Origin: Escherichia coli
Lineage (GTDB): Bacteria > Pseudomonadota > Gammaproteobacteria > Enterobacterales > Enterobacteriaceae
Assembly: GCF_044324785.1 (NCBI RefSeq)
Contig: NZ_CP172127.1
Length of the DNA: 64,000 nucleotides
Strand: one strand, 5' to 3'
This document shows positions 48,300 through 64,000 of the stretch, piece after piece. A program made the translations under genes and the position numbers. Every line of letters starts with the position of its first letter. The stretch's first letter is position 1. Below the pieces are notes generated by a model that was not told the origin of the DNA, made no database searches, and was given only the letters and a program-made list of their open reading frames with translations.

Positions 48300-56915
<8,616 letters not shown>

Positions 56916-57112
56916 GCTTACCTTCCCTGAACGAGCTAACATAAATGCGCCCTTTCTAGCACAGCGAAAAAAAGTAAATCCTGATAGCAATATGATTGAA
57001 AATTAATAACTTTTCGTTAAGCAGTTTTGAGTGTGAGTTGCAAGAGGGGAGACTACTGAATTACTCAAGTTTTATAATCGAGGGGAAAATGGTGATGGCG
57101 TTCATAGCAAAA

Positions 57113-58294: not shown

Positions 58295-58384
58295 GGAGAG
58301 ATGCCGGAGCGGCTGAACGGACCGGTCTCGAAAACCGGAGTAGGGGCAACTCTACCGGGGGTTCAAATCCCCCTCTCTCCGCCA
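58295..58384 (+). tRNA. serU: tRNA-Ser (CGA)
   Basis: GGAGAGAUGCCGGAGCGGCUGAACGGACCGGUCUCGAAAACCGGAGUAGGGGCAACUCUACCGGGGGUUCAAAUCCCCCUCUCUCCGCCA, 90 nt with long variable arm. Confidence 0.95.
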
Positions 58385-58469
58385 CTTTATCAATGACTTA
58401 CGTCACTCACTTTTCACCGTCGATCCCCCTGTTAGAACGGACTTAGAATATTCACTTAGAATTAGACCG

Positions 58470-59498
58470 TCACGGGTTTCTGCTCAGAACTGTGACATCC
58501 AGCACCGGAATATCCAGAGTCGGAGTTACTGCGGGTTTGCGATCATACGTCAGCACTTGCGCCTCTGTTTTGTGACCAGAGAACAACTGCTTTTCTTTAC
58601 TGCTTCCGTCGTAGTCTGAGATCCCCTTCGCTTTTAAATCGTGAAACGTTCCCGTAATCGGGTAGCCCAGCTTTTCACTTGCCGCCGCCCTGGCTTTACG
58701 CCAGATATCGTTAAATCCGGTATAGCTGTATTGCCCGCCATATTTGTTACAGACCACGAAATGTTGTCCTCCCAACGATTTCGCCTGCTCAAGTGCGAAC
58801 GTCAGTCGCTCTGAATACTGTTTGATCTGCTTTTTGCCAGTCTTACCCTGTTGGATAAACAACCCCTTACTCATTACCTGATCCCACGTCAGCTTTCGTA
58901 TATCGCCGATCCGCGTGGCGCACAGATAGGCGATCTCCATCGCGCACTGTAAAACGGGAGATGCCTCCTGATAAATTGCGATATATTCCTCGTCCGTGAA
59001 ATAGTAGTCGCGGGGCTTGAGGGAAAATTTACTGACGCCCTGGCATGGATTCCCTTTTACGTATCCGCGTTCGTATCCCCAGCGGAATACTCGCGACATA
59101 CTGGCTTTTTCATGGTTCGCCTGTGTTTTGCTTTTCAGCCCCCGCTTGTCCATATACAGCCGCACGTGAGCAGGTTTTATGTTGTCGGCTTTCATTTTCC
59201 CGAACGCGGCGAGTAATTTCTTCTGGTGCTGCAGATAATCCTTTTGTGTACGCTGACCGAGTTCCAGATAGTAGGTGCTGTTGAGAAATTTGTTCCAGAG
59301 TTTACTGAACGTCATGACATCAATAGCATCATTCAGGATCTCTTCGTATTTCACCCATACCTGAGCAATTGACAGATCATTAATTTTACCCAGCGTAATA
59401 CACTCTCGGGGCGTTGGTTTGAAATAATAGCTGTATTTGTTTTTATAAACGCGGGGTGGCAGCTTATTATCTTCCGCGTTTTTTCGTGTTCTGCTCAT
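58470..59498 (-). CDS. int: Lambda-family tyrosine integrase
   Basis: 342 aa; N-terminus MSRTRKNAEDNKLPPRVYKNKYSYYFKPTPRE.. resembles the lambda Int arm-binding domain; C-terminal ..TGTFHDLKAKGISDYD.. catalytic region. Confidence 0.85.
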   Translation of the reverse strand: MSRTRKNAEDNKLPPRVYKNKYSYYFKPTPRECITLGKINDLSIAQVWVKYEEILNDAIDVMTFSKLWNKFLNSTYYLELGQRTQKDYLQHQKKLLAAFGKMKADNIKPAHVRLYMDKRGLKSKTQANHEKASMSRVFRWGYERGYVKGNPCQGVSKFSLKPRDYYFTDEEYIAIYQEASPVLQCAMEIAYLCATRIGDIRKLTWDQVMSKGLFIQQGKTGKKQIKQYSERLTFALEQAKSLGGQHFVVCNKYGGQYSYTGFNDIWRKARAAASEKLGYPITGTFHDLKAKGISDYDGSSKEKQLFSGHKTEAQVLTYDRKPAVTPTLDIPVLDVTVLSRNP

Positions 59499-59713
59499 CA
59501 GATTGCATCAAAATTAGGTTGTTCTTCTTCGGCTATCTGCGCGGGTCTGGCTCCGGACAGCGCGGCGTTTACATGCGTCCACGTGACGCGAGGTCGCCCG
59601 TCGCGGCGTTTTACATAAGAGATCCCGGCACGGGTCAGGGCACCGCATTGTTTTGACGGGAACTGGTAACCGGTCAGTTCAACCAGTTCCTGGTCTGTTA
59701 GCAGGTCGTTCAT
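59498..59713 (-). CDS. xis: Excisionase-like protein (DUF4224-type)
   Basis: 71 aa MNDLLTDQELVELTGYQFPSKQCGALTRAGISYVKRRDGRPRVTW.., immediately upstream of int with overlapping start/stop. Confidence 0.65.
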   Translation of the reverse strand: MNDLLTDQELVELTGYQFPSKQCGALTRAGISYVKRRDGRPRVTWTHVNAALSGARPAQIAEEEQPNFDAI

Positions 59714-59903
59714 GGTCTTTCCTCATAATGCGGTAAATCAGGTCATCTGCCGCCTTGCAGGCACGGGCAATATCAGACTCGGTCAAAGTCTGTTTCCTGA
59801 CGCTGGCCGAGAGTCGGCCAATTTTGATATCAAATGCGGAGAGCAGAGTTGCTCCCGGTTGCCATCGCAGCATTGTGATCCTCCGGTTACTGGTGAATCG
59901 CAA
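59679..59903 (-). CDS. Hypothetical prophage protein (74 aa)
   Basis: ORF in the prophage early-left region; no family recognised. Confidence 0.3.
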   Translation of the reverse strand: MRFTSNRRITMLRWQPGATLLSAFDIKIGRLSASVRKQTLTESDIARACKAADDLIYRIMRKDHERPANRPGTG

Positions 59904-59922
59904 TGCTAGCGATGGTGAGTTT

Positions 59923-60105
59923 TTATTTCTGATTAGGCGTAATCAGTTCTGGTGGGGGGAATGCCGATTTCTCCCGCGTGACCTTAATGTTTTCTGGCAG
60001 GTGTAGCCCAAGTTCGCAGCGGCTCCGTGCTTCAATAATGCCATTGGTACCATCGGCAAGTACCAGGTGAACCGCGTCACCACGCTTTAATGTGAGTTTA
60101 AGCAT
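59923..60105 (-). CDS. Hypothetical prophage protein (60 aa)
   Basis: ORF whose start abuts the stop of the upstream gene; no family recognised. Confidence 0.3.
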   Translation of the reverse strand: MLKLTLKRGDAVHLVLADGTNGIIEARSRCELGLHLPENIKVTREKSAFPPPELITPNQK

Positions 60106-60674
60106 TAGCGTACCCTCAGCGAACGTTCGCCGTGTTCCAGATGTGCGCCTGGTACCGGGTTTAATAATTCGGCTGGTGGTGTTTCTCCACGCGCCAGTAT
60201 TTCGGCGGCAACCGCCTCCGCAGATTCAATCACTTCTTTAATGGCTCGTTTGTTTGGTGTAATAACCGTTTCTACATCAACAAGTGACACGCCTTCATAC
60301 TCATCCGGGATCTTATCTTTGCTATCGATAATTACCCGGATAGCCCCCTGTGCATCAGTAAATGTGTTTTTTGCGGTTTTCAGTTTATCCAGGCCAGCAG
60401 CTTGCAGGCAGGCGAGCATATGCTTCCGAATTGCTTTTTCCTTGCCTTCAAAGGACGTCTTACGGGTAGCCAGGCGAGACATTTCTTCAGCGCAGGTACT
60501 GGCATTGCCCTGTAAATTACGGCAGATGACCATCATGGCGTCCAGTTTGTCTCCCAGTTCTCCTTCCATACCTTCAAGCGTGTCGGCGATCATCTCTGGC
60601 GTCAGTTCGTCGGAGGTTTCCAGCAGGTCAATCAGGCTGGCGTATTCTTTTGCAATAGCGATAGCGGTGCTCAT
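60105..60674 (-). CDS. Hypothetical prophage protein, possibly Siphovirus Gp157-like
   Basis: 189 aa, acidic with a coiled-coil-like N-terminus; sits directly downstream of the large gene whose C-terminus looks like a ssDNA-annealing protein. Family assignment is from memory only. Confidence 0.4.
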   Translation of the reverse strand: MSTAIAIAKEYASLIDLLETSDELTPEMIADTLEGMEGELGDKLDAMMVICRNLQGNASTCAEEMSRLATRKTSFEGKEKAIRKHMLACLQAAGLDKLKTAKNTFTDAQGAIRVIIDSKDKIPDEYEGVSLVDVETVITPNKRAIKEVIESAEAVAAEILARGETPPAELLNPVPGAHLEHGERSLRVR

Positions 60675-62884
60675 GCTGTTTGCTCCTGTGCGGCGGCGAG
60701 AGCGGCGAGGCGTTCGGTTTTGATTTCATTCAAACGGCGCAGGCGCGAACCAAGATAAGTTGAATACTCCTTATCACCTTTGGATTCTGCGGCCTTGCGG
60801 TGAACTTCTACTTCCCGCGCAATAAGGCCATAGACTTTATTAACTTCATTGGGGGTTACGGCTGCAGCCAGTGTTTTGGCAACACCTGAGAGTCGTTCAT
60901 CCAGTTCTTCACGCAGTCGGGTAGCATCCTCTACTTTCTCGCTTGCCTTCTTAATACCGTATTCTGTATTCAGCTCGGCGGTGTAGGCACTATCGTTATG
61001 CATATCCATATAAACATCTGCCGCAAATCCCAGATGAGATAGTGCTTTGACGGTGGCATCAGTAAGAGACTTTTTGGAGGCCTCTTTTTCCATTACCAGT
61101 GCCCCTTTGTTATTTTTTGATATGTAATCCGTGTGGCCATATGACGGAATAAATCCTTTCACTCCGTTCCAGATGTACCAGAGATCTATCCGGATGGTGT
61201 GTACTGACAGGCAGAACAGGGAACCGTCAGCATCCCTGACAGGTTTTTGTCCAATAATTTTCCCTGTCTGATCCTGTATAGGTTCAAGTAATGGCACACC
61301 GCGATCCACTCGCTCCTCCTTGATTTCAACTCCCCAACCAATGCCTTCCATTCCCAGCACTTCAGTCGCACGCATCAAAATATATTGTGCGCGTATGGAG
61401 TGCAGTCCTGCACCGTAATCATTATGTGTGACATACGCAGGATCGGTCCGCTGAACGCGATTCCAGATAGCCAAATTTGCTTTGCTCTGGTCATCATTCA
61501 TTGCTGACAGATAATGCTCCATGCGAATTGATGCAGTTTTTTCCTCGGCATGGATCCGCTCAACCAGCGCGTCAACGTTTTGCACCAGGTCTTTTACCTG
61601 CTCGCTAAGTTTTTCTTGTGGAGGAGTCTCTTCTGTCGGGGTAATAGCTGCAGGTTCCCTCTGTGATACTGCGTTATTTTCAGGTACGTCATACACATGG
61701 CGAGGCGTGACAAACTGCTCACGCAACTGCTGCAAACTACGTTCTCCAGCATTTGCTGCTTCGCTTTTTTCGCCCTGATTTGAGGGTGTTTCTGACATCA
61801 TTCCATCAATTGAGAATCGCCCGCCGCCGTGGTTGGTGACTTTTACATCATCCTTTGGTGCTGTTTCCTTTGGCTTCTCTTCAACAGCATTTGCATCACG
61901 CTGCCCGTTAGCTTGCAGCCAGTTGTCGATGTGACTGCGCAGGGATTGCGGGAAGTGGTACGTGTCTTTTGCGGGGGCGCTCTGAATAACACCGAATACT
62001 GATGCGCGGTCATAGGCAAGGATCTGATCCGTTGTGCGCAAGGCCATTGACCAGCGTTTAAAATCCTCCCGATCCTGGCTGATTATTTCGTCTGCCGCTT
62101 TCAGGACGCTGGGGGTGATTTTTTCCGGGCCAACGGGTAACAGGGCGCAGGCAATTTCACGATCCAGTGTGGCGTGAGTCTGTTTGTAAGGACGTGCGGA
62201 CGGTTTTACCTCCGGCAGCATTTCATCGCGTTTACCGGGATTCTCTACCCATTTTTTTATAAATTTGGAGATAGTCCAACTGGTCGGGTTTTGTTCCTGG
62301 GTATCGCAACTTGCCAAAATTGCATGTATCAGATTATTCAATCCAGCAATATGCATGTACTCGATGGGCTTACACGCCACCATGGCATCAAGAACGATGC
62401 GGTTAAACGCGTCAACCTCATCCTCACTGTCAGTATCACTGTTGTCGAGCATCTCCAGGTATTCACGCGTCTGCGCAAGCAATTCACTGTCGACTTCGTT
62501 GGCGTCGTGGCTGAACAGCAGAACGGCGGCGAATCGTTCACGAGCCGGCAGTTTCATCAGGTCGTTAACCTGTGCGATATCTGCTGAACCGCTATCTACA
62601 ACGGGGGTGTTAACTACCCATTTTTCGCCATCAAAACTGTGTTCTGTGGCGAACGTCTCATCAAACTCACCAACGCCTGGGCGCGGTTGGCCCGGGGCAT
62701 CTTCCCAGATTTTAGGTTTGAAATAGTTGTCGCCGTGGTCAGGGTAGGCTTCCCACAATTTGCCGATGATGATGTTCTCGGCAACTTTTTTGTTAGGGGC
62801 GTCGATGGCGATGGCCAGCGCCGGGATCGCGCCGTTTTTGAGCGCGCCTTTTTTCGCTTCTAACAAGCCGTTAAAAATGGTCAT
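60671..62884 (-). CDS. Large prophage early protein (737 aa); C-terminal third resembles Erf/Rad52-like ssDNA-annealing proteins
   Basis: Strong SD (GAGGAAAG) before the ATG; C-terminal region ..GIGWGVEIKEERV..KKSLTDATVKALSHLGFAADVY.. has the signature typical of phage SSAPs; N-terminal about 450 aa unassigned. Confidence 0.45.
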   Translation of the reverse strand: MTIFNGLLEAKKGALKNGAIPALAIAIDAPNKKVAENIIIGKLWEAYPDHGDNYFKPKIWEDAPGQPRPGVGEFDETFATEHSFDGEKWVVNTPVVDSGSADIAQVNDLMKLPARERFAAVLLFSHDANEVDSELLAQTREYLEMLDNSDTDSEDEVDAFNRIVLDAMVACKPIEYMHIAGLNNLIHAILASCDTQEQNPTSWTISKFIKKWVENPGKRDEMLPEVKPSARPYKQTHATLDREIACALLPVGPEKITPSVLKAADEIISQDREDFKRWSMALRTTDQILAYDRASVFGVIQSAPAKDTYHFPQSLRSHIDNWLQANGQRDANAVEEKPKETAPKDDVKVTNHGGGRFSIDGMMSETPSNQGEKSEAANAGERSLQQLREQFVTPRHVYDVPENNAVSQREPAAITPTEETPPQEKLSEQVKDLVQNVDALVERIHAEEKTASIRMEHYLSAMNDDQSKANLAIWNRVQRTDPAYVTHNDYGAGLHSIRAQYILMRATEVLGMEGIGWGVEIKEERVDRGVPLLEPIQDQTGKIIGQKPVRDADGSLFCLSVHTIRIDLWYIWNGVKGFIPSYGHTDYISKNNKGALVMEKEASKKSLTDATVKALSHLGFAADVYMDMHNDSAYTAELNTEYGIKKASEKVEDATRLREELDERLSGVAKTLAAAVTPNEVNKVYGLIAREVEVHRKAAESKGDKEYSTYLGSRLRRLNEIKTERLAALAAAQEQTA

Positions 62885-62914
62885 TGGTCTTTCCTCATTA
62901 CAGGTCAGTGGTCT

Positions 62915-63235
62915 TTAGTAGGGGATTTCATCAGTATCTGGCGTGTATTCGATGCAAAGTAACTGCTGGATTTTGTCATCGATAGCAGCAATACGCTGTT
63001 GGGCGTCGGCGACTGTTTTCTGTTTTTGTTCACGCAGCTGCTCGACCTGTAAACCGATGATGTCGATTGGCTGGGGCTGGTTGACGGTAATTTCAATTTC
63101 GCGGCTTTCCAGAAGGATGTACCTGTCTGGAAAATTTTTTGACATATCAACCGTCGCAATAAGCAGCTTTTCATGGCTGAAAGTTGAAGTTGCATAATGA
63201 ATAAAGAGTGTTACTGGGATGGTGCGCGCTTCCAT
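62915..63235 (-). CDS. Hypothetical prophage protein (106 aa)
   Basis: ORF MEARTIPVTLFIHYATSTFSHEKLLIATVDMSKNFPDRYILLESREIEITVNQ..; no family recognised. Confidence 0.35.
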   Translation of the reverse strand: MEARTIPVTLFIHYATSTFSHEKLLIATVDMSKNFPDRYILLESREIEITVNQPQPIDIIGLQVEQLREQKQKTVADAQQRIAAIDDKIQQLLCIEYTPDTDEIPY

Positions 63236-64000
63236 AGCGACTCCTTGGTGATGTATACTCGGGACCGATCAGCGAATATTGATCAGCTTCCATAGCGTCA
63301 GTGTCGTTGGTCTTTCCTCATCACAAGTTTGGTCACTTGTGATAAATCCGAATGGTTTGGTCGCCGTTCGGGGTAACTGGCCCGCCTTGTGCGGGTCTTT
63401 TGCTATCTAAAGGGTGCCGGTTACGTTTCCGGCGTCGTTATGTTTCCATCACGACCGTACGGGGCTGGTCTTTCCTGTTTTGAGCTGGTCAGGCTCATGG
63501 TCAACGCTGGTCAGGCGTGGTACTTCCTCCGGTCTTTCCCTGGTGTCACGCTGCGGGTTTGGCCTCTCCTGTTGGGGACTCAGGCACAGCGATAAAACCT
63601 GGCTGTGTGAAAAAATGGCCCATCGTGCGGACTGGGCAAAGACTAAACACAGCAAATTGATGATGGGCGCCCGGAATCGAACCGGGTAACGGGCAGGGAG
63701 TTCCCGTTAAACACCTGTTCACCACAACCGGGAGCGCACTCCGCCATTTCAAAATTTAACGACAAAGCTCAAAGTTGAGTCGATGAAGTGCGCTCTCGTG
63801 TTGTAGCCAGGACTCTTCCCTGGTGGTCACACCGTATCGCCTTGATGGTGAATCAATCGCTCATACCTGGCTGTGGCTTGCACATTCCGGCTACCTGCTA
63901 TGGAGACAACGCGTTAAGGCTCCGCTTCCATCCAGACCGCTTCGACACATGTGCCATATGCCGGTGAAGTCTTTCCCTCTGTCATCGTGCTGTCGGCGAC

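What the first reader, a model, noticed from the sequence alone, without database searches (positions are those of the whole stretch)
58385..64000. Lambdoid prophage at serU with an unusual early-left region
The int-xis pair next to tRNA-Ser is followed by small ORFs, a possibly Gp157-like protein and a 737-aa protein. The early-left region of lambdoid phages often carries recombination, anti-defence and host-takeover genes, so this is a plausible place for uncharacterised functions. The prophage continues beyond the window, so its intactness is unknown.
Basis: partly seen in the sequence, partly recalled or inferred. Interest (0 to 1): 0.5.

Follow-up and report, generated by a model that had tools for sequence, protein, structure and literature searches.

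The report
serU prophage: annealase module, RprA-like leader
This is the left arm of an ordinary, probably intact temperate phage inserted in a serine tRNA gene; its big "exonuclease" is really a DNA-annealing recombinase, and the untranslated stretch upstream carries a copy of the active 3' end of the host regulatory RNA RprA, a module that turns out to be common and unannotated in phages.

Summary
tRNA-Ser(CGA) lies at 58295-58384, followed on the minus strand by int, xis (DUF4224), two small ORFs, a Gp157 protein (Pfam E 3e-27), a 737-aa protein and orf106. From 63236 to the window end there is no credible ORF.

Contigs 100% identical to the window's last 10 kb continue with cI/cro-like genes, replication genes, Q, lysis genes, terminase, portal and capsid. 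A 98% relative has attR. This is therefore a prophage, not a remnant.

The region is under-annotated, not rare. The same module occurs in about 8% of complete E. coli genomes, in Salmonella and Klebsiella, and in the isolated phage BUCT708.

The leader contains an RprA-like 3' module: seed, terminator hairpin and U-run. Its consensus 18-mer is found in more than 120 viral contigs; a central RprA segment is found in none. It is absent from Rfam and from the papers I could search. The window's copy is a lineage-specific variant with two seed changes. Expression and function are untested.

The parts
58295..58384 (+). serU, tRNA-Ser(CGA); the integration target
   Evidence: ARAGORN; Rfam tRNA, 57 bits, in the relative; annotated tRNA-Ser in relatives.
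58324..58400 (.). attL core: the 3' 61 nt of serU plus 16 nt, repeated at attR in the relative
   Evidence: Exact 25-mer of the tRNA 3' end found once more at L004 18733-18757. Reading the sequence shows a 77-bp identical stretch.
58470..59498 (-). tyrosine integrase, 342 aa
   Evidence: phrog_1 E 1.5e-51; PF00589 on the identical gene in L005.
59498..59713 (-). excisionase-type protein (DUF4224), 71 aa
   Evidence: phrog_1266 'excisionase' E 4.7e-31; PF13986. A GGAAAGAC motif lies directly upstream at 59715-59722.
59679..59873 (-). orf64, small conserved protein of unknown function
   Evidence: phrog_27062 E 1.3e-38, matching residues 11-74 of the longer ORF. Called as a 64-aa gene in L005, L007 and L013.
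59923..60105 (-). orf60, small conserved protein of unknown function
   Evidence: phrog_2482 E 5e-35. Conserved directly after Gp157 in all relatives.
60105..60674 (-). Siphovirus Gp157 family protein, 189 aa; the gene directly follows the annealase gene
   Evidence: Pfam PF05565 E 2.9e-27; phrog_253, labelled 'Mu Gam-like end protection', E 1e-45. The same annealase-then-Gp157 order occurs in Pseudomonas phage PseuP_222, where the annealase is a stand-alone protein.
60671..62884 (-). 737-aa fusion protein: YdfE_N region, disordered linker, Rad52-fold annealing domain and helical tail. Annotated elsewhere as 'exonuclease family protein'
   Evidence: phrog_2489; precomputed PF27430 YdfE_N. No hit in the local Pfam-A and none in the PDB by sequence.
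61850..62884 (-). N-terminal YdfE_N region (aa 1-345), homologous to the non-catalytic N-terminal/middle part of RecE/ExoVIII-type proteins
61007..61495 (-). Rad52-fold single-strand annealing core (about aa 464-626)
60674..60991 (-). C-terminal three-helix tail of the annealase (about aa 632-737)
   Evidence: Helices at residues 176-218, 222-245 and 249-280 of the model, pLDDT above 92. Conserved across the family.
62915..63235 (-). orf106, first conserved gene of the early-left operon; function unknown
   Evidence: phrog_2479 E 1.8e-52. Present upstream of the annealase gene in all relatives.
63236..64000 (-). ORF-free leader of the early-left transcript. It continues about 80 bp beyond the window, then a two-gene insert, then pL
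   Evidence: No credible ORF. Never annotated in the 447 E. coli genomes that carry it. About 71% identity between E. coli and Klebsiella over about 860 nt. pL-like promoter at L005 8120-8148.
63610..63656 (-). RprAproc-like module: seed TTTGCTGTGTTTAGTCTT (63639-63656), hairpin (63618-63638), CA (63616-63617), T6 (63610-63615). It is followed by ACACAG (63603-63608), which is complementary to the seed
   Evidence: Rfam RF00034: 37.4 bits, E 0.0088, on 63608-63718. 41.8-50.2 bits in the Salmonella, Klebsiella and BUCT708 copies. Alignments A5 and A6; fold.
63661..63686 (-). tRNA-like T-arm plus acceptor 3' strand fragment (CCCGGTTCGATTCCGGGCGCCCATCA); an insertion specific to the E. coli lineage
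   Evidence: Weak tRNA-Sec hit at 63662-63742. Absent from the Klebsiella and Salmonella leaders in the alignment. Not called by ARAGORN.
63500..63531 (.). protospacer matched 32/32 by a type I-E CRISPR spacer of other E. coli strains, with an adjacent ATG PAM
   Evidence: spacer at L010 1510-1541.

Best explanation
The region is the left arm of a temperate phage integrated into the 3' end of serU. One leftward operon, driven by a pL-type promoter that lies about 1 kb beyond the window end, reads through a long untranslated leader and then orf106, a 737-aa protein, Gp157, orf60, orf64, xis and int.

The 737-aa protein is not a nuclease. It is a single-strand annealing recombinase of the Rad52/Sak type. 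Its annealing domain (about aa 464-626, followed by a helical tail) is fused to an N-terminal region that is otherwise found at the non-catalytic N-terminus of RecE-type exonucleases.

Together with Gp157 it forms the phage's homologous-recombination module. That module has no dedicated exonuclease, so single-stranded ends would have to come from host nucleases or from replication (inferred).

The leader carries a module homologous to the last ~47 nt of the host sRNA RprA, which is its naturally processed and active form: a seed, then an intrinsic terminator. The likeliest working model is as follows. After induction, some pL transcripts terminate there. That 3' end, possibly trimmed by RNase E, acts as an Hfq-type small RNA with an RprA-like seed. 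Transcripts that read through instead express the recombination and excision genes.

What is shown: gene identities, folds, conservation, and the sequence anatomy of the RNA module. What is inferred: annealing activity, the role of Gp157, termination, processing, and any trans-acting function.
For: Prophage:
- attL/attR repeat and a full gene set in the relative.
- Contigs 100% identical to the window carry immunity, replication, Q, lysis and head genes.

Recombinase:
- C-terminal domain model with pLDDT 94.9.
- 9 of 60 homologues hit Pfam Rad52_Rad22 at E<=1e-3.
- Stand-alone homologues are annotated as RAD52-like annealing proteins, and in phage PseuP_222 the stand-alone gene is directly followed by a Gp157 gene.

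Leader module:
- Rfam RprA hits at the same place and in the same orientation in four genera.
- The 18-mer is identical to RprA in the Klebsiella, Salmonella and BUCT708 copies, while the flanks are only about 70% identical.
- 49 of 58 distinct viral variants have a hairpin plus T-run directly after the 18-mer, with diverse and covarying stems.
- More than 120 viral contigs carry the 18-mer; none carries a central RprA 20-mer.
- The module sits at the same position, between the repressor gene and the first early-left gene, in unrelated temperate phages LLS and vB_EcoM-606R2.
- RprAproc is the last 47 nt of RprA and is active on its own (PMC9262595).
- StxS shows that a phage leader terminator can yield a working sRNA (PMC7547250).
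Against: - No biochemical or expression data exist for any part of this.
- The query protein itself does not reach significance against Pfam Rad52_Rad22. The link is transitive plus structural.
- Gp157's function is unknown. The 'Gam-like' label comes only from a PHROG name and one depositor's note.
- The window's own RNA module deviates from the consensus at two seed positions, has a weaker hairpin, and exists only in this one lineage. It may be decaying or retargeted.
- Its Rfam score is 37 bits, far below the gathering score of 70, and its 5' half is unlike RprA.
- No promoter of its own was detected.
- I cannot prove that the window comes from the same assembly as L005. One 100%-identical contig (L008) has a Mu-like element in place of the immunity region about 0.6 kb past the window end.
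Confidence: 0.75

Rival explanations
1. The 737-aa protein is a RecE/ExoVIII-type exonuclease, as RefSeq and PHROG names say, and resects DNA ends for a separate annealase.
For: RefSeq names it 'exonuclease family protein'. phrog_2489 and phrog_7838 are labelled 'exonuclease'. There is a weak NCBIfam exoVIII hit.
Confidence: 0.05
2. The RprA-like stretch is only a transcription terminator or an evolutionary fossil of a captured rprA 3' end, with no trans-acting RNA function. Its conservation reflects a cis role, such as attenuating early-left transcription.
For: It sits in a leader, ends in a hairpin plus T-run, and has no promoter of its own. A downstream ACACAG can pair with the seed in read-through RNA, which suggests a cis structure; 19 of 49 terminator variants have this. 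The window copy is mutated in the seed.
Against: A terminator does not need an invariant 18-23-nt single-stranded segment upstream of the stem. That segment stays identical to RprA while the stems and flanks vary freely, and across phages of Escherichia, Salmonella, Klebsiella, Erwinia and Dickeya, including lytic ones. Capture as a fossil cannot explain more than 58 independent contexts.
Confidence: 0.35
3. One reading: the early-left genes are mainly anti-defence or host-takeover functions.
For: Four small proteins (orf106, orf60, orf64, and the insert just past the window) have no known function. If Gp157 is Gam-like, it would protect DNA ends from RecBCD.
Against: The two largest genes form a recombination pair. 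None of the proteins resembles a known defence-system component in PADLOC, although that library does not cover anti-defence genes. The gene order is fixed across genera, which fits a core module better than variable accessory cargo.
Confidence: 0.15
4. The element in the source genome is a defective remnant, not an inducible prophage.
For: The window stops inside the leader. One 100%-identical contig (L008) has a Mu-like element where the immunity region should be.
Against: Most identical contexts (17 similar places behind L005) have the full immunity region. The same contig continues through to the head genes. All early-left ORFs in the window are intact.
Confidence: 0.12

Closest known systems
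Rad52-type phage annealases (Sak of lactococcal phage ul36 and staphylococcal phage 80alpha; the Rad52/Mgm101 fold)
   Different: Here the annealing domain is the C-terminal part of a 737-aa protein, with a ~345-aa YdfE_N region and a ~110-aa disordered linker in front and a three-helix tail behind. Known Sak proteins are stand-alone. Only about 30 of the best 150 cluster representatives are fused forms.
RecE-RecT of the Rac prophage and lambda Red (Exo-Beta-Gam)
   Same: It is an early-left recombination module of a lambdoid prophage, and its N-terminal region is homologous to the non-catalytic part of RecE.
RprA (Rfam RF00034), in particular its processed form RprAproc (last 47 nt)
   Same: In the consensus phage copies the 18-23-nt seed is identical. 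The order is the same: seed, then a GCCC...GGGC terminator, then a U-run.
   Different: The 5' half is not homologous. Scores are 37-50 bits against a gathering score of 70. It is encoded inside phage transcripts, not as a chromosomal gene. The window copy has two seed substitutions.
StxS, the sRNA made by early termination of the Stx-phage pR' transcript (PMC7547250)
   Same: The concept is the same: a phage leader terminator that yields an RNase E-processed sRNA imitating core sRNAs of the RprA/DsrA/ArcZ group.
   Different: This one lies at pL, not pR'. There is no sequence similarity: no 18-mer within 3 mismatches in the Sp5 stretch searched, from Q to beyond stx2. The homology is to the 3' seed of RprA; from memory (not tested here), RprA's rpoS-pairing region lies mostly upstream of that part.
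Prophage anti-sRNAs AsxR and AgvB (PMC4104026)
   Same: Both are short prophage RNAs with variable 5' ends and a conserved 3' scaffold. Some viral copies of the 18-mer share a 5' hairpin (CACCGGGAGGCACCCGGCACCA) with the Sp5 locus.
   Different: The AsxR locus lacks the 18-mer. Those RNAs lie downstream of pR' and act as target mimics.

Membership tests
Lambdoid temperate phage | Tyrosine integrase and excisionase next to an att site that duplicates part of the target gene | tested here: met
   int and xis at 58470-59713. The 77-bp serU-derived core is repeated at attR in the relative.
Lambdoid temperate phage | Divergent cI/cro-type immunity region, O-type initiator plus helicase, Q antiterminator and lysis cassette in lambda order | tested here: met
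   Seen in contigs 100% identical to the window and in the relative. All of it lies beyond base 64000.
Lambdoid temperate phage | N-type antiterminator gene downstream of pL | tested here: not met
   There is no N-like ORF between pL and orf106 in any relative. A ~40-nt invariant start of the pL transcript may play a cis role instead. HK022 putL shows no copy of the 18-mer.
Lambdoid temperate phage | Lambda-type non-contractile tail | tested here: not met
   The relative TUM11353 has P2-type baseplate, sheath and tube genes behind lambda-type head genes. Not checked in the window's own lineage.
Rad52/Sak single-strand annealing proteins | Rad52 N-terminal domain fold (beta-beta-beta-alpha core) | tested here: met
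Rad52/Sak single-strand annealing proteins | Significant match to Pfam Rad52_Rad22 (PF04098) | tested here: inconclusive
   The query itself gives no hit. Of 60 family members, 9 hit at E<=1e-3 and 24 at E<=0.1.
Rad52/Sak single-strand annealing proteins | Ring oligomer, ssDNA binding and strand annealing | not testable with these tools
   Needs biochemistry or cryo-EM.
RecE / exodeoxyribonuclease VIII | C-terminal nuclease domain; whole-protein score above the NCBIfam cut-off | tested here: not met
Siphovirus Gp157 (PF05565) | Significant Pfam match over most of the model | tested here: met
   E 2.9e-27, model positions 4-149 of 162.
RprA (RF00034) | Covariance-model score at or above the gathering score (70 bits) | tested here: not met
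   37.4 bits in the window; 41.8-50.2 bits in relatives.
RprA (RF00034) | Conserved 3' seed AUUGCUGUGUGUAGUCUUUGCC followed by a terminator and U-run | tested here: met
   16 of 18 seed positions in the window, 18 of 18 in the Klebsiella, Salmonella and BUCT708 copies; hairpin plus T6-7.
RprA (RF00034) | 5' and central stem-loops carrying the rpoS-pairing region | tested here: not met
   The 5' half is not alignable with K-12 rprA. The central 20-mer is absent from all viral contigs.
Leader-terminated phage sRNA (StxS type) | A stable short RNA produced by termination downstream of a phage promoter and processed by RNase E | not testable with these tools
   Only the sequence anatomy is seen: pL at L005 8120-8148, then the terminator at window 63610-63638. 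No transcript data.

The most novel reading that the evidence does not exclude
Phages of Enterobacterales, both temperate and lytic, carry a portable module that copies the processed, active 3' part of the host sRNA RprA: seed, terminator and U-tail. They place it in early leaders or behind genes, so that phage transcription releases an RprAproc mimic that hijacks part of the RprA regulon. Alternatively, the 3' domain of rprA is itself of phage origin. The serU prophage leader would be one somewhat diverged member of this undescribed RNA family.
Probability: 0.4. Interest if true: 0.7.

Novelty: new variant of a known kind. Interest (0 to 1): 0.45.

Why it matters
There are three practical points.

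1. A protein found in hundreds of E. coli genomes and in well over a thousand Salmonella assemblies is named "exonuclease" or "hypothetical". The evidence says it is a Rad52-type annealase fused to the enigmatic N-terminal region of RecE. This gives a handle on what that RecE region does, because the same region is attached either to a nuclease or to an annealase. It may also provide a new recombineering protein.

2. The annealase-Gp157 gene pair is found both as this fusion and, in PseuP_222, as a stand-alone annealase. This nominates Gp157 as a recombination accessory factor.

3. If the RprA-like module is expressed, it would be a widespread case of phages copying the business end of a core stress-response sRNA. 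That would extend the StxS precedent from one toxin phage to many phage families and to lytic phages. It is directly testable by Northern blot, Term-seq or RIL-seq.

Tried and rejected
- **Megablast against isolated phages.** The 5.6 kb gave no match. Only protein-level and short-motif searches found relatives.
- **Sequence searches of the PDB.** The whole protein, the C-terminal profile and Gp157 gave only noise.
- **PADLOC.** No hits.
- **HK022 put antiterminator RNA.** I asked whether the conserved leader motifs are put RNA. The putL region has no copy of the 18-mer. I did not establish any structural similarity of the invariant pL-proximal 40-mer to put.
- **The ~42-nt 3' scaffold of the AsxR/AgvB anti-sRNAs.** I asked whether the 18-mer module is that scaffold. 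The Sp5 AsxR locus lacks it.
- **Native rprA swept into prophage predictions.** Rejected as an explanation of the viral hits: none of the 80 loci has an RprA-like 5' flank, and the central RprA 20-mer has zero viral hits.
- **A fossil attP for an rprA-targeting integrase.** Rejected, because the motif occurs far from int, in more than 58 different contexts, and in lytic phages.
- **Literature searches.** Searches for Gp157 with annealing, for YdfE with RecE, for RprA-like phage RNAs, and for the motif sequence itself returned nothing relevant.
Full report
**1. What is in the sequence**

The window is an Escherichia chromosome. It carries yeeJ (48300-56990, minus strand), tRNA-Asn, mtfA and tRNA-Ser(CGA), which is serU, at 58295-58384. 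Directly after serU a block of minus-strand genes begins:

| Gene | Coordinates | Evidence |
|---|---|---|
| int | 58470-59498 | phrog_1, E 1.5e-51 |
| xis-type DUF4224 protein | 59498-59713 | phrog_1266 |
| orf64 | 59679-59873 | phrog_27062 |
| orf60 | 59923-60105 | phrog_2482 |
| Gp157 protein | 60105-60674 | Pfam PF05565, E 2.9e-27 |
| 737-aa protein | 60671-62884 | phrog_2489 |
| orf106 | 62915-63235 | phrog_2479 |

From 63236 to the end of the window there is no credible ORF on either strand.

**2. Is it a prophage, and is it whole?**

The 5.8 kb is present at 96-98% identity over at least 80% of its length in 19 of 5426 complete E. coli genomes, always next to serU. In strain TUM11353 (98.1% identity) the element is 44.5 kb. 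It holds a cI-type repressor, a cro-type regulator, YdaT, an O-like initiator, DnaB, Q, holins, terminase, gpW, portal, S49 protease, decoration protein, major capsid and FI. These are followed by P2-type baseplate, sheath, tube and tail-fibre genes, and the element ends before yodB. The last 61 nt of serU plus 16 nt (window 58324-58400) are repeated there as attR.

The exact 737-aa protein is on record in 255 index blocks. Three contigs are 100% identical to the last 10 kb of the window. One of them was followed for a further 28 kb. It carries the immunity region, replication genes, Q, lysis genes, terminase, portal, protease and capsid.

Two caveats apply. I cannot prove which assembly the window comes from. 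One identical contig (L008) has a Mu-like element in place of the immunity region about 0.6 kb past the window end.

"Lambdoid" is fair for regulation, replication, lysis and head genes. No N-type gene exists between pL and the first gene, and the tail in the relative is contractile.

**3. How unusual is the early-left region?**

It is not rare.
- A sister prophage at a tRNA-Leu gene next to pgsA has the same order (repressor, leader, orf106, a ~738-aa protein, Gp157, orf60, Xis, Int) with a different integrase. With it, the leader is found in 447 of 5426 E. coli genomes.
- The module is also found in Salmonella (1736 index blocks for one allele), Klebsiella and Raoultella.
- It occurs in the isolated temperate phage vB_SmeS_BUCT708.
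- No isolated phage matches at the megablast level.
- None of the proteins matches a known defence family.

**4. The 737-aa protein**

RefSeq calls it "exonuclease family protein" or "hypothetical". The local Pfam-A finds nothing. The precomputed tag is PF27430, YdfE_N.

tblastn against phages splits the protein in two. Residues 45-330 resemble the N-terminal part of RecE/ExoVIII-type proteins. Residues 466-705 resemble stand-alone ~200-aa proteins, one of which is annotated "RAD52-like annealing protein".

The exoVIII NCBIfam hit covers only profile positions 264-370 of 877, at 45.7 bits against a cut-off of 1269.

An exhaustive search with residues 457-737 found 2351 cluster representatives. 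Most are stand-alone proteins of 240-280 aa, and about 30 of the best 150 are fused forms of 670-815 aa. In an alignment of 60 stand-alone members, 9 hit Pfam Rad52_Rad22 at E<=1e-3 and 24 at E<=0.1.

All other hits are helical bundles that match the C-terminal three-helix tail.

The family alignment also shows two alleles of the annealing core joined to near-identical flanks. That is the mosaic pattern expected of phage recombination genes.

I conclude that the protein is a Rad52-type single-strand annealing protein fused to a RecE-N/YdfE_N region, and that the name "exonuclease" is carried over from that shared non-catalytic region.

**5. Gp157 and the rest of the operon**

In Pseudomonas phage PseuP_222 a stand-alone member of the annealase family is followed directly by a Gp157 gene, as here. 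The pair is also kept in every relative of the fused form. This supports a functional couple.

What Gp157 does is not known. The label "Mu Gam-like end protection" is a PHROG family name and one depositor's note, and the PDB sequence search is empty.

No exonuclease gene is present in the operon, so the source of single-stranded DNA is inferred to be host nucleases or replication. orf106, orf60 and orf64 are conserved and of unknown function.

The octamer GGAAAGAC occurs 7 times in the window against 1.7 expected. Six copies are on the sense strand of this operon, including directly upstream of the xis and 737-aa start codons.

**6. The leader**

In contigs identical to the window, a pL-like promoter with operator-like repeats lies just downstream of the repressor gene (L005 8120-8148). 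In the window's lineage a 677-bp insert with two small genes follows. In TUM11353 the leader runs uninterrupted for about 850 nt to orf106. The leader aligns at about 71% identity between E. coli and Klebsiella over about 860 nt. Shorter Salmonella and Raoultella versions keep four blocks.

*An RprA-like block.* Rfam reports RprA (RF00034) at window 63608-63718, in the direction of early-left transcription: 37.4 bits, E 0.0088, gathering score 70. The same hit appears at the same place in BUCT708 (50.2 bits), Klebsiella (48.2) and Salmonella (41.8).

The similarity lies in the 3' half only. ATTGCTGTGTGTAGTCTT is identical in K-12 rprA and in the Klebsiella, BUCT708 and Salmonella copies. It is followed by a hairpin whose inner sequence differs between lineages, and then T6-7. 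This segment corresponds to RprAproc, the last 47 nt of RprA, which co-exists with the full-length RNA and is active on its own (PMC9262595).

*How widespread it is.*
- None of the 80 stored loci has an RprA-like 5' flank.
- A 20-mer from the centre of RprA has no viral hit at all.
- Among 58 distinct variants, 49 have a stable hairpin and T-run immediately after the 18-mer, with many different stems. Of those 49, 19 have ACAYAR, complementary to the seed, just after the T-run. Six have a ribosome-binding site and ATG within about 50 nt after the 18-mer and no terminator call.
- In an alignment of 27 short-hairpin copies, the conserved part extends to 23 nt plus the outer GCCC/GGGC pairs. The fifth stem pair covaries as A-U, G-C or C-G, with 8 sequences changed on both sides.
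- About 20 of the 80 loci are the same prophage family.
- Isolated phages with the module include N4-like Erwinia phages (directly after thymidylate synthase in Ea9-2), Erwinia and Dickeya jumbo phages, and the temperate E. coli phages LLS and vB_EcoM-606R2. In the last two it again lies between the repressor gene and the first early-left gene.
- E. coli genomes hold about 760 copies besides rprA.

*Is it already known?* Rfam has no family for it, and four literature searches found no description. The closest precedent is StxS, an sRNA made by termination of the Stx-phage pR' transcript and processed by RNase E. It pairs with rpoS at the site used by RprA, DsrA and ArcZ (PMC7547250). The Sp5 region from Q to beyond stx2 has no copy of the 18-mer, so this is not StxS. 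It is also not the AsxR/AgvB scaffold (PMC4104026).

*The window's own copy.* The copy at 63610-63656 reads TTTGCTGTGTTTAGTCTT, two changes from the consensus. It has a weaker hairpin, and a tRNA-like T-arm fragment is inserted just upstream. This variant occurs in only one lineage: 12 of its 15 viral hits are the same element, and the other 3 lack a terminator. It may be a retargeted or a decaying member.

**7. Mechanism proposed**

Shown:
- gene identities, folds and conservation;
- the anatomy of the RNA module.

Inferred:
- After induction, pL transcripts enter the leader.
- A fraction ends at the RprA-like terminator and yields, perhaps after RNase E cleavage in front of AUUGCUG, a short Hfq-type RNA with the RprA 3' seed.
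- Read-through transcripts express orf106, the annealase, Gp157, Xis and Int.
- How read-through is achieved without an N gene is open.
- The first ~40 nt of the pL transcript (CATCAACGACGCACTAACCACGCGGCAGTTGTTCAGAA) are nearly invariant across immunity types and downstream variants, and may be a cis-acting element. They lie beyond the window.
- HK022 putL shows no copy of the 18-mer.

**8. Verdict**

The finding as stated is an ordinary, probably intact prophage. Its early-left region is a conserved recombination module, not a set of exotic genes. Two things raise it above routine:
- the re-assignment of a widespread "exonuclease" to a RecE-N-Rad52 annealase fusion paired with Gp157;
- an undescribed, widespread RprAproc-like module in phage transcripts, of which the window holds a diverged copy.

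Both are variants of known kinds, and neither has experimental support yet.

Noticed in passing
window 63500-63531: A type I-E CRISPR spacer in other E. coli strains (for example strain 702/18) matches this non-coding leader 32/32, with an ATG PAM next to the protospacer. This phage family has therefore been sampled by CRISPR adaptation.
   Followed up: yes
L008 1-8400 (contig ABNVKP010000003.1, 100% identical to the window's last 10 kb): In one lineage a Mu-like element (rve transposase, MuB-type AAA protein, Gam, GemA, Mor) occupies the place of the prophage immunity region, about 0.6 kb beyond the window end.
   Followed up: partly
L005 8198-8876 (just beyond window base 64000): The window's lineage has a 677-bp insert in the pL leader that TUM11353 and the leuZ sister prophage lack. 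It carries a 124-aa gene (phrog_9419) and a convergent 72-aa gene, which looks like a moron.
   Followed up: partly
L005 8155-8198; also L001, L003, L013, L016, L018 and about 20 viral loci: The first ~40 nt of the pL transcript (CATCAACGACGCACTAACCACGCGGCAGTTGTTCAGAA) are nearly invariant across genera, immunity types and different downstream sequences. No N gene is present. It is a possible cis-acting antitermination or processing element.
   Followed up: partly
window 63379-63397 (+), with a T-run to about 63405: A terminator-like hairpin points against early-left transcription. It is conserved with a compensatory change (CCCGC/GCGGG in E. coli and Klebsiella; CCCAC/GTGGG in Salmonella and Raoultella). 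Rfam gives a near-threshold isrB hit there in Raoultella (31.9 bits against 35) but only 15 bits in the window. It may mark an antisense RNA upstream of orf106.
   Followed up: partly
window 59715, 62887, 63310, 63468, 63532, 63969 (all minus strand): GGAAAGAC occurs six times in the early-left operon, against 1.7 expected in the whole 64-kb window. Two copies lie directly upstream of the xis and annealase start codons. Three lie in the leader with no annotated ORF after them.
   Followed up: partly
window 63661-63686 (-): A fragment looks like the T-arm and 3' acceptor strand of a tRNA (CCCGGTTCGATTCCGGGCGCCCATCA). It is inserted just upstream of the RprA-like seed in the E. coli lineage only.
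   Followed up: no
window 60671-62884; alignment A1: The annealing core (about aa 455-640) exists in two alleles (SIRAQYILMRATEV... and SINGTYIAMKATREF...) joined to near-identical N-terminal and C-terminal parts. This indicates recombination within the gene.
   Followed up: no
L004 18775-18900 (relative TUM11353, just outside attR): Right after attR there is a short stretch that resembles the 3' end of an integrase gene and its flank (cgtcactgttttctgttcgatactgtgacattcagcac). It is probably a remnant of an earlier integration at serU.
   Followed up: no
window 48300-56990 (-): yeeJ is an intact 2896-aa ORF here. In the relative TUM11353 it is annotated as split or partial.
   Followed up: no
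L023, L042 and L148 3040-3070 (Sakai Sp5, downstream of stx2B): A hairpin motif, CACCGGGAGGCACCCGGCACCA, precedes the 18-mer in some viral contigs. In Sp5 it precedes a different 3' module. This suggests that prophage small RNAs are assembled from exchangeable 5' and 3' parts.
   Followed up: no
L030, L035, L038, L061, L067, L076 (viral contigs): In six variants the 18-mer is followed within about 50 nt by a ribosome-binding site and ATGTTC, with no terminator call. Two further variants (L059, L097) show the same ATGTTC inside a long GGCGG...CCGCC hairpin. This may be a leader peptide or attenuator form of the module.
   Followed up: no
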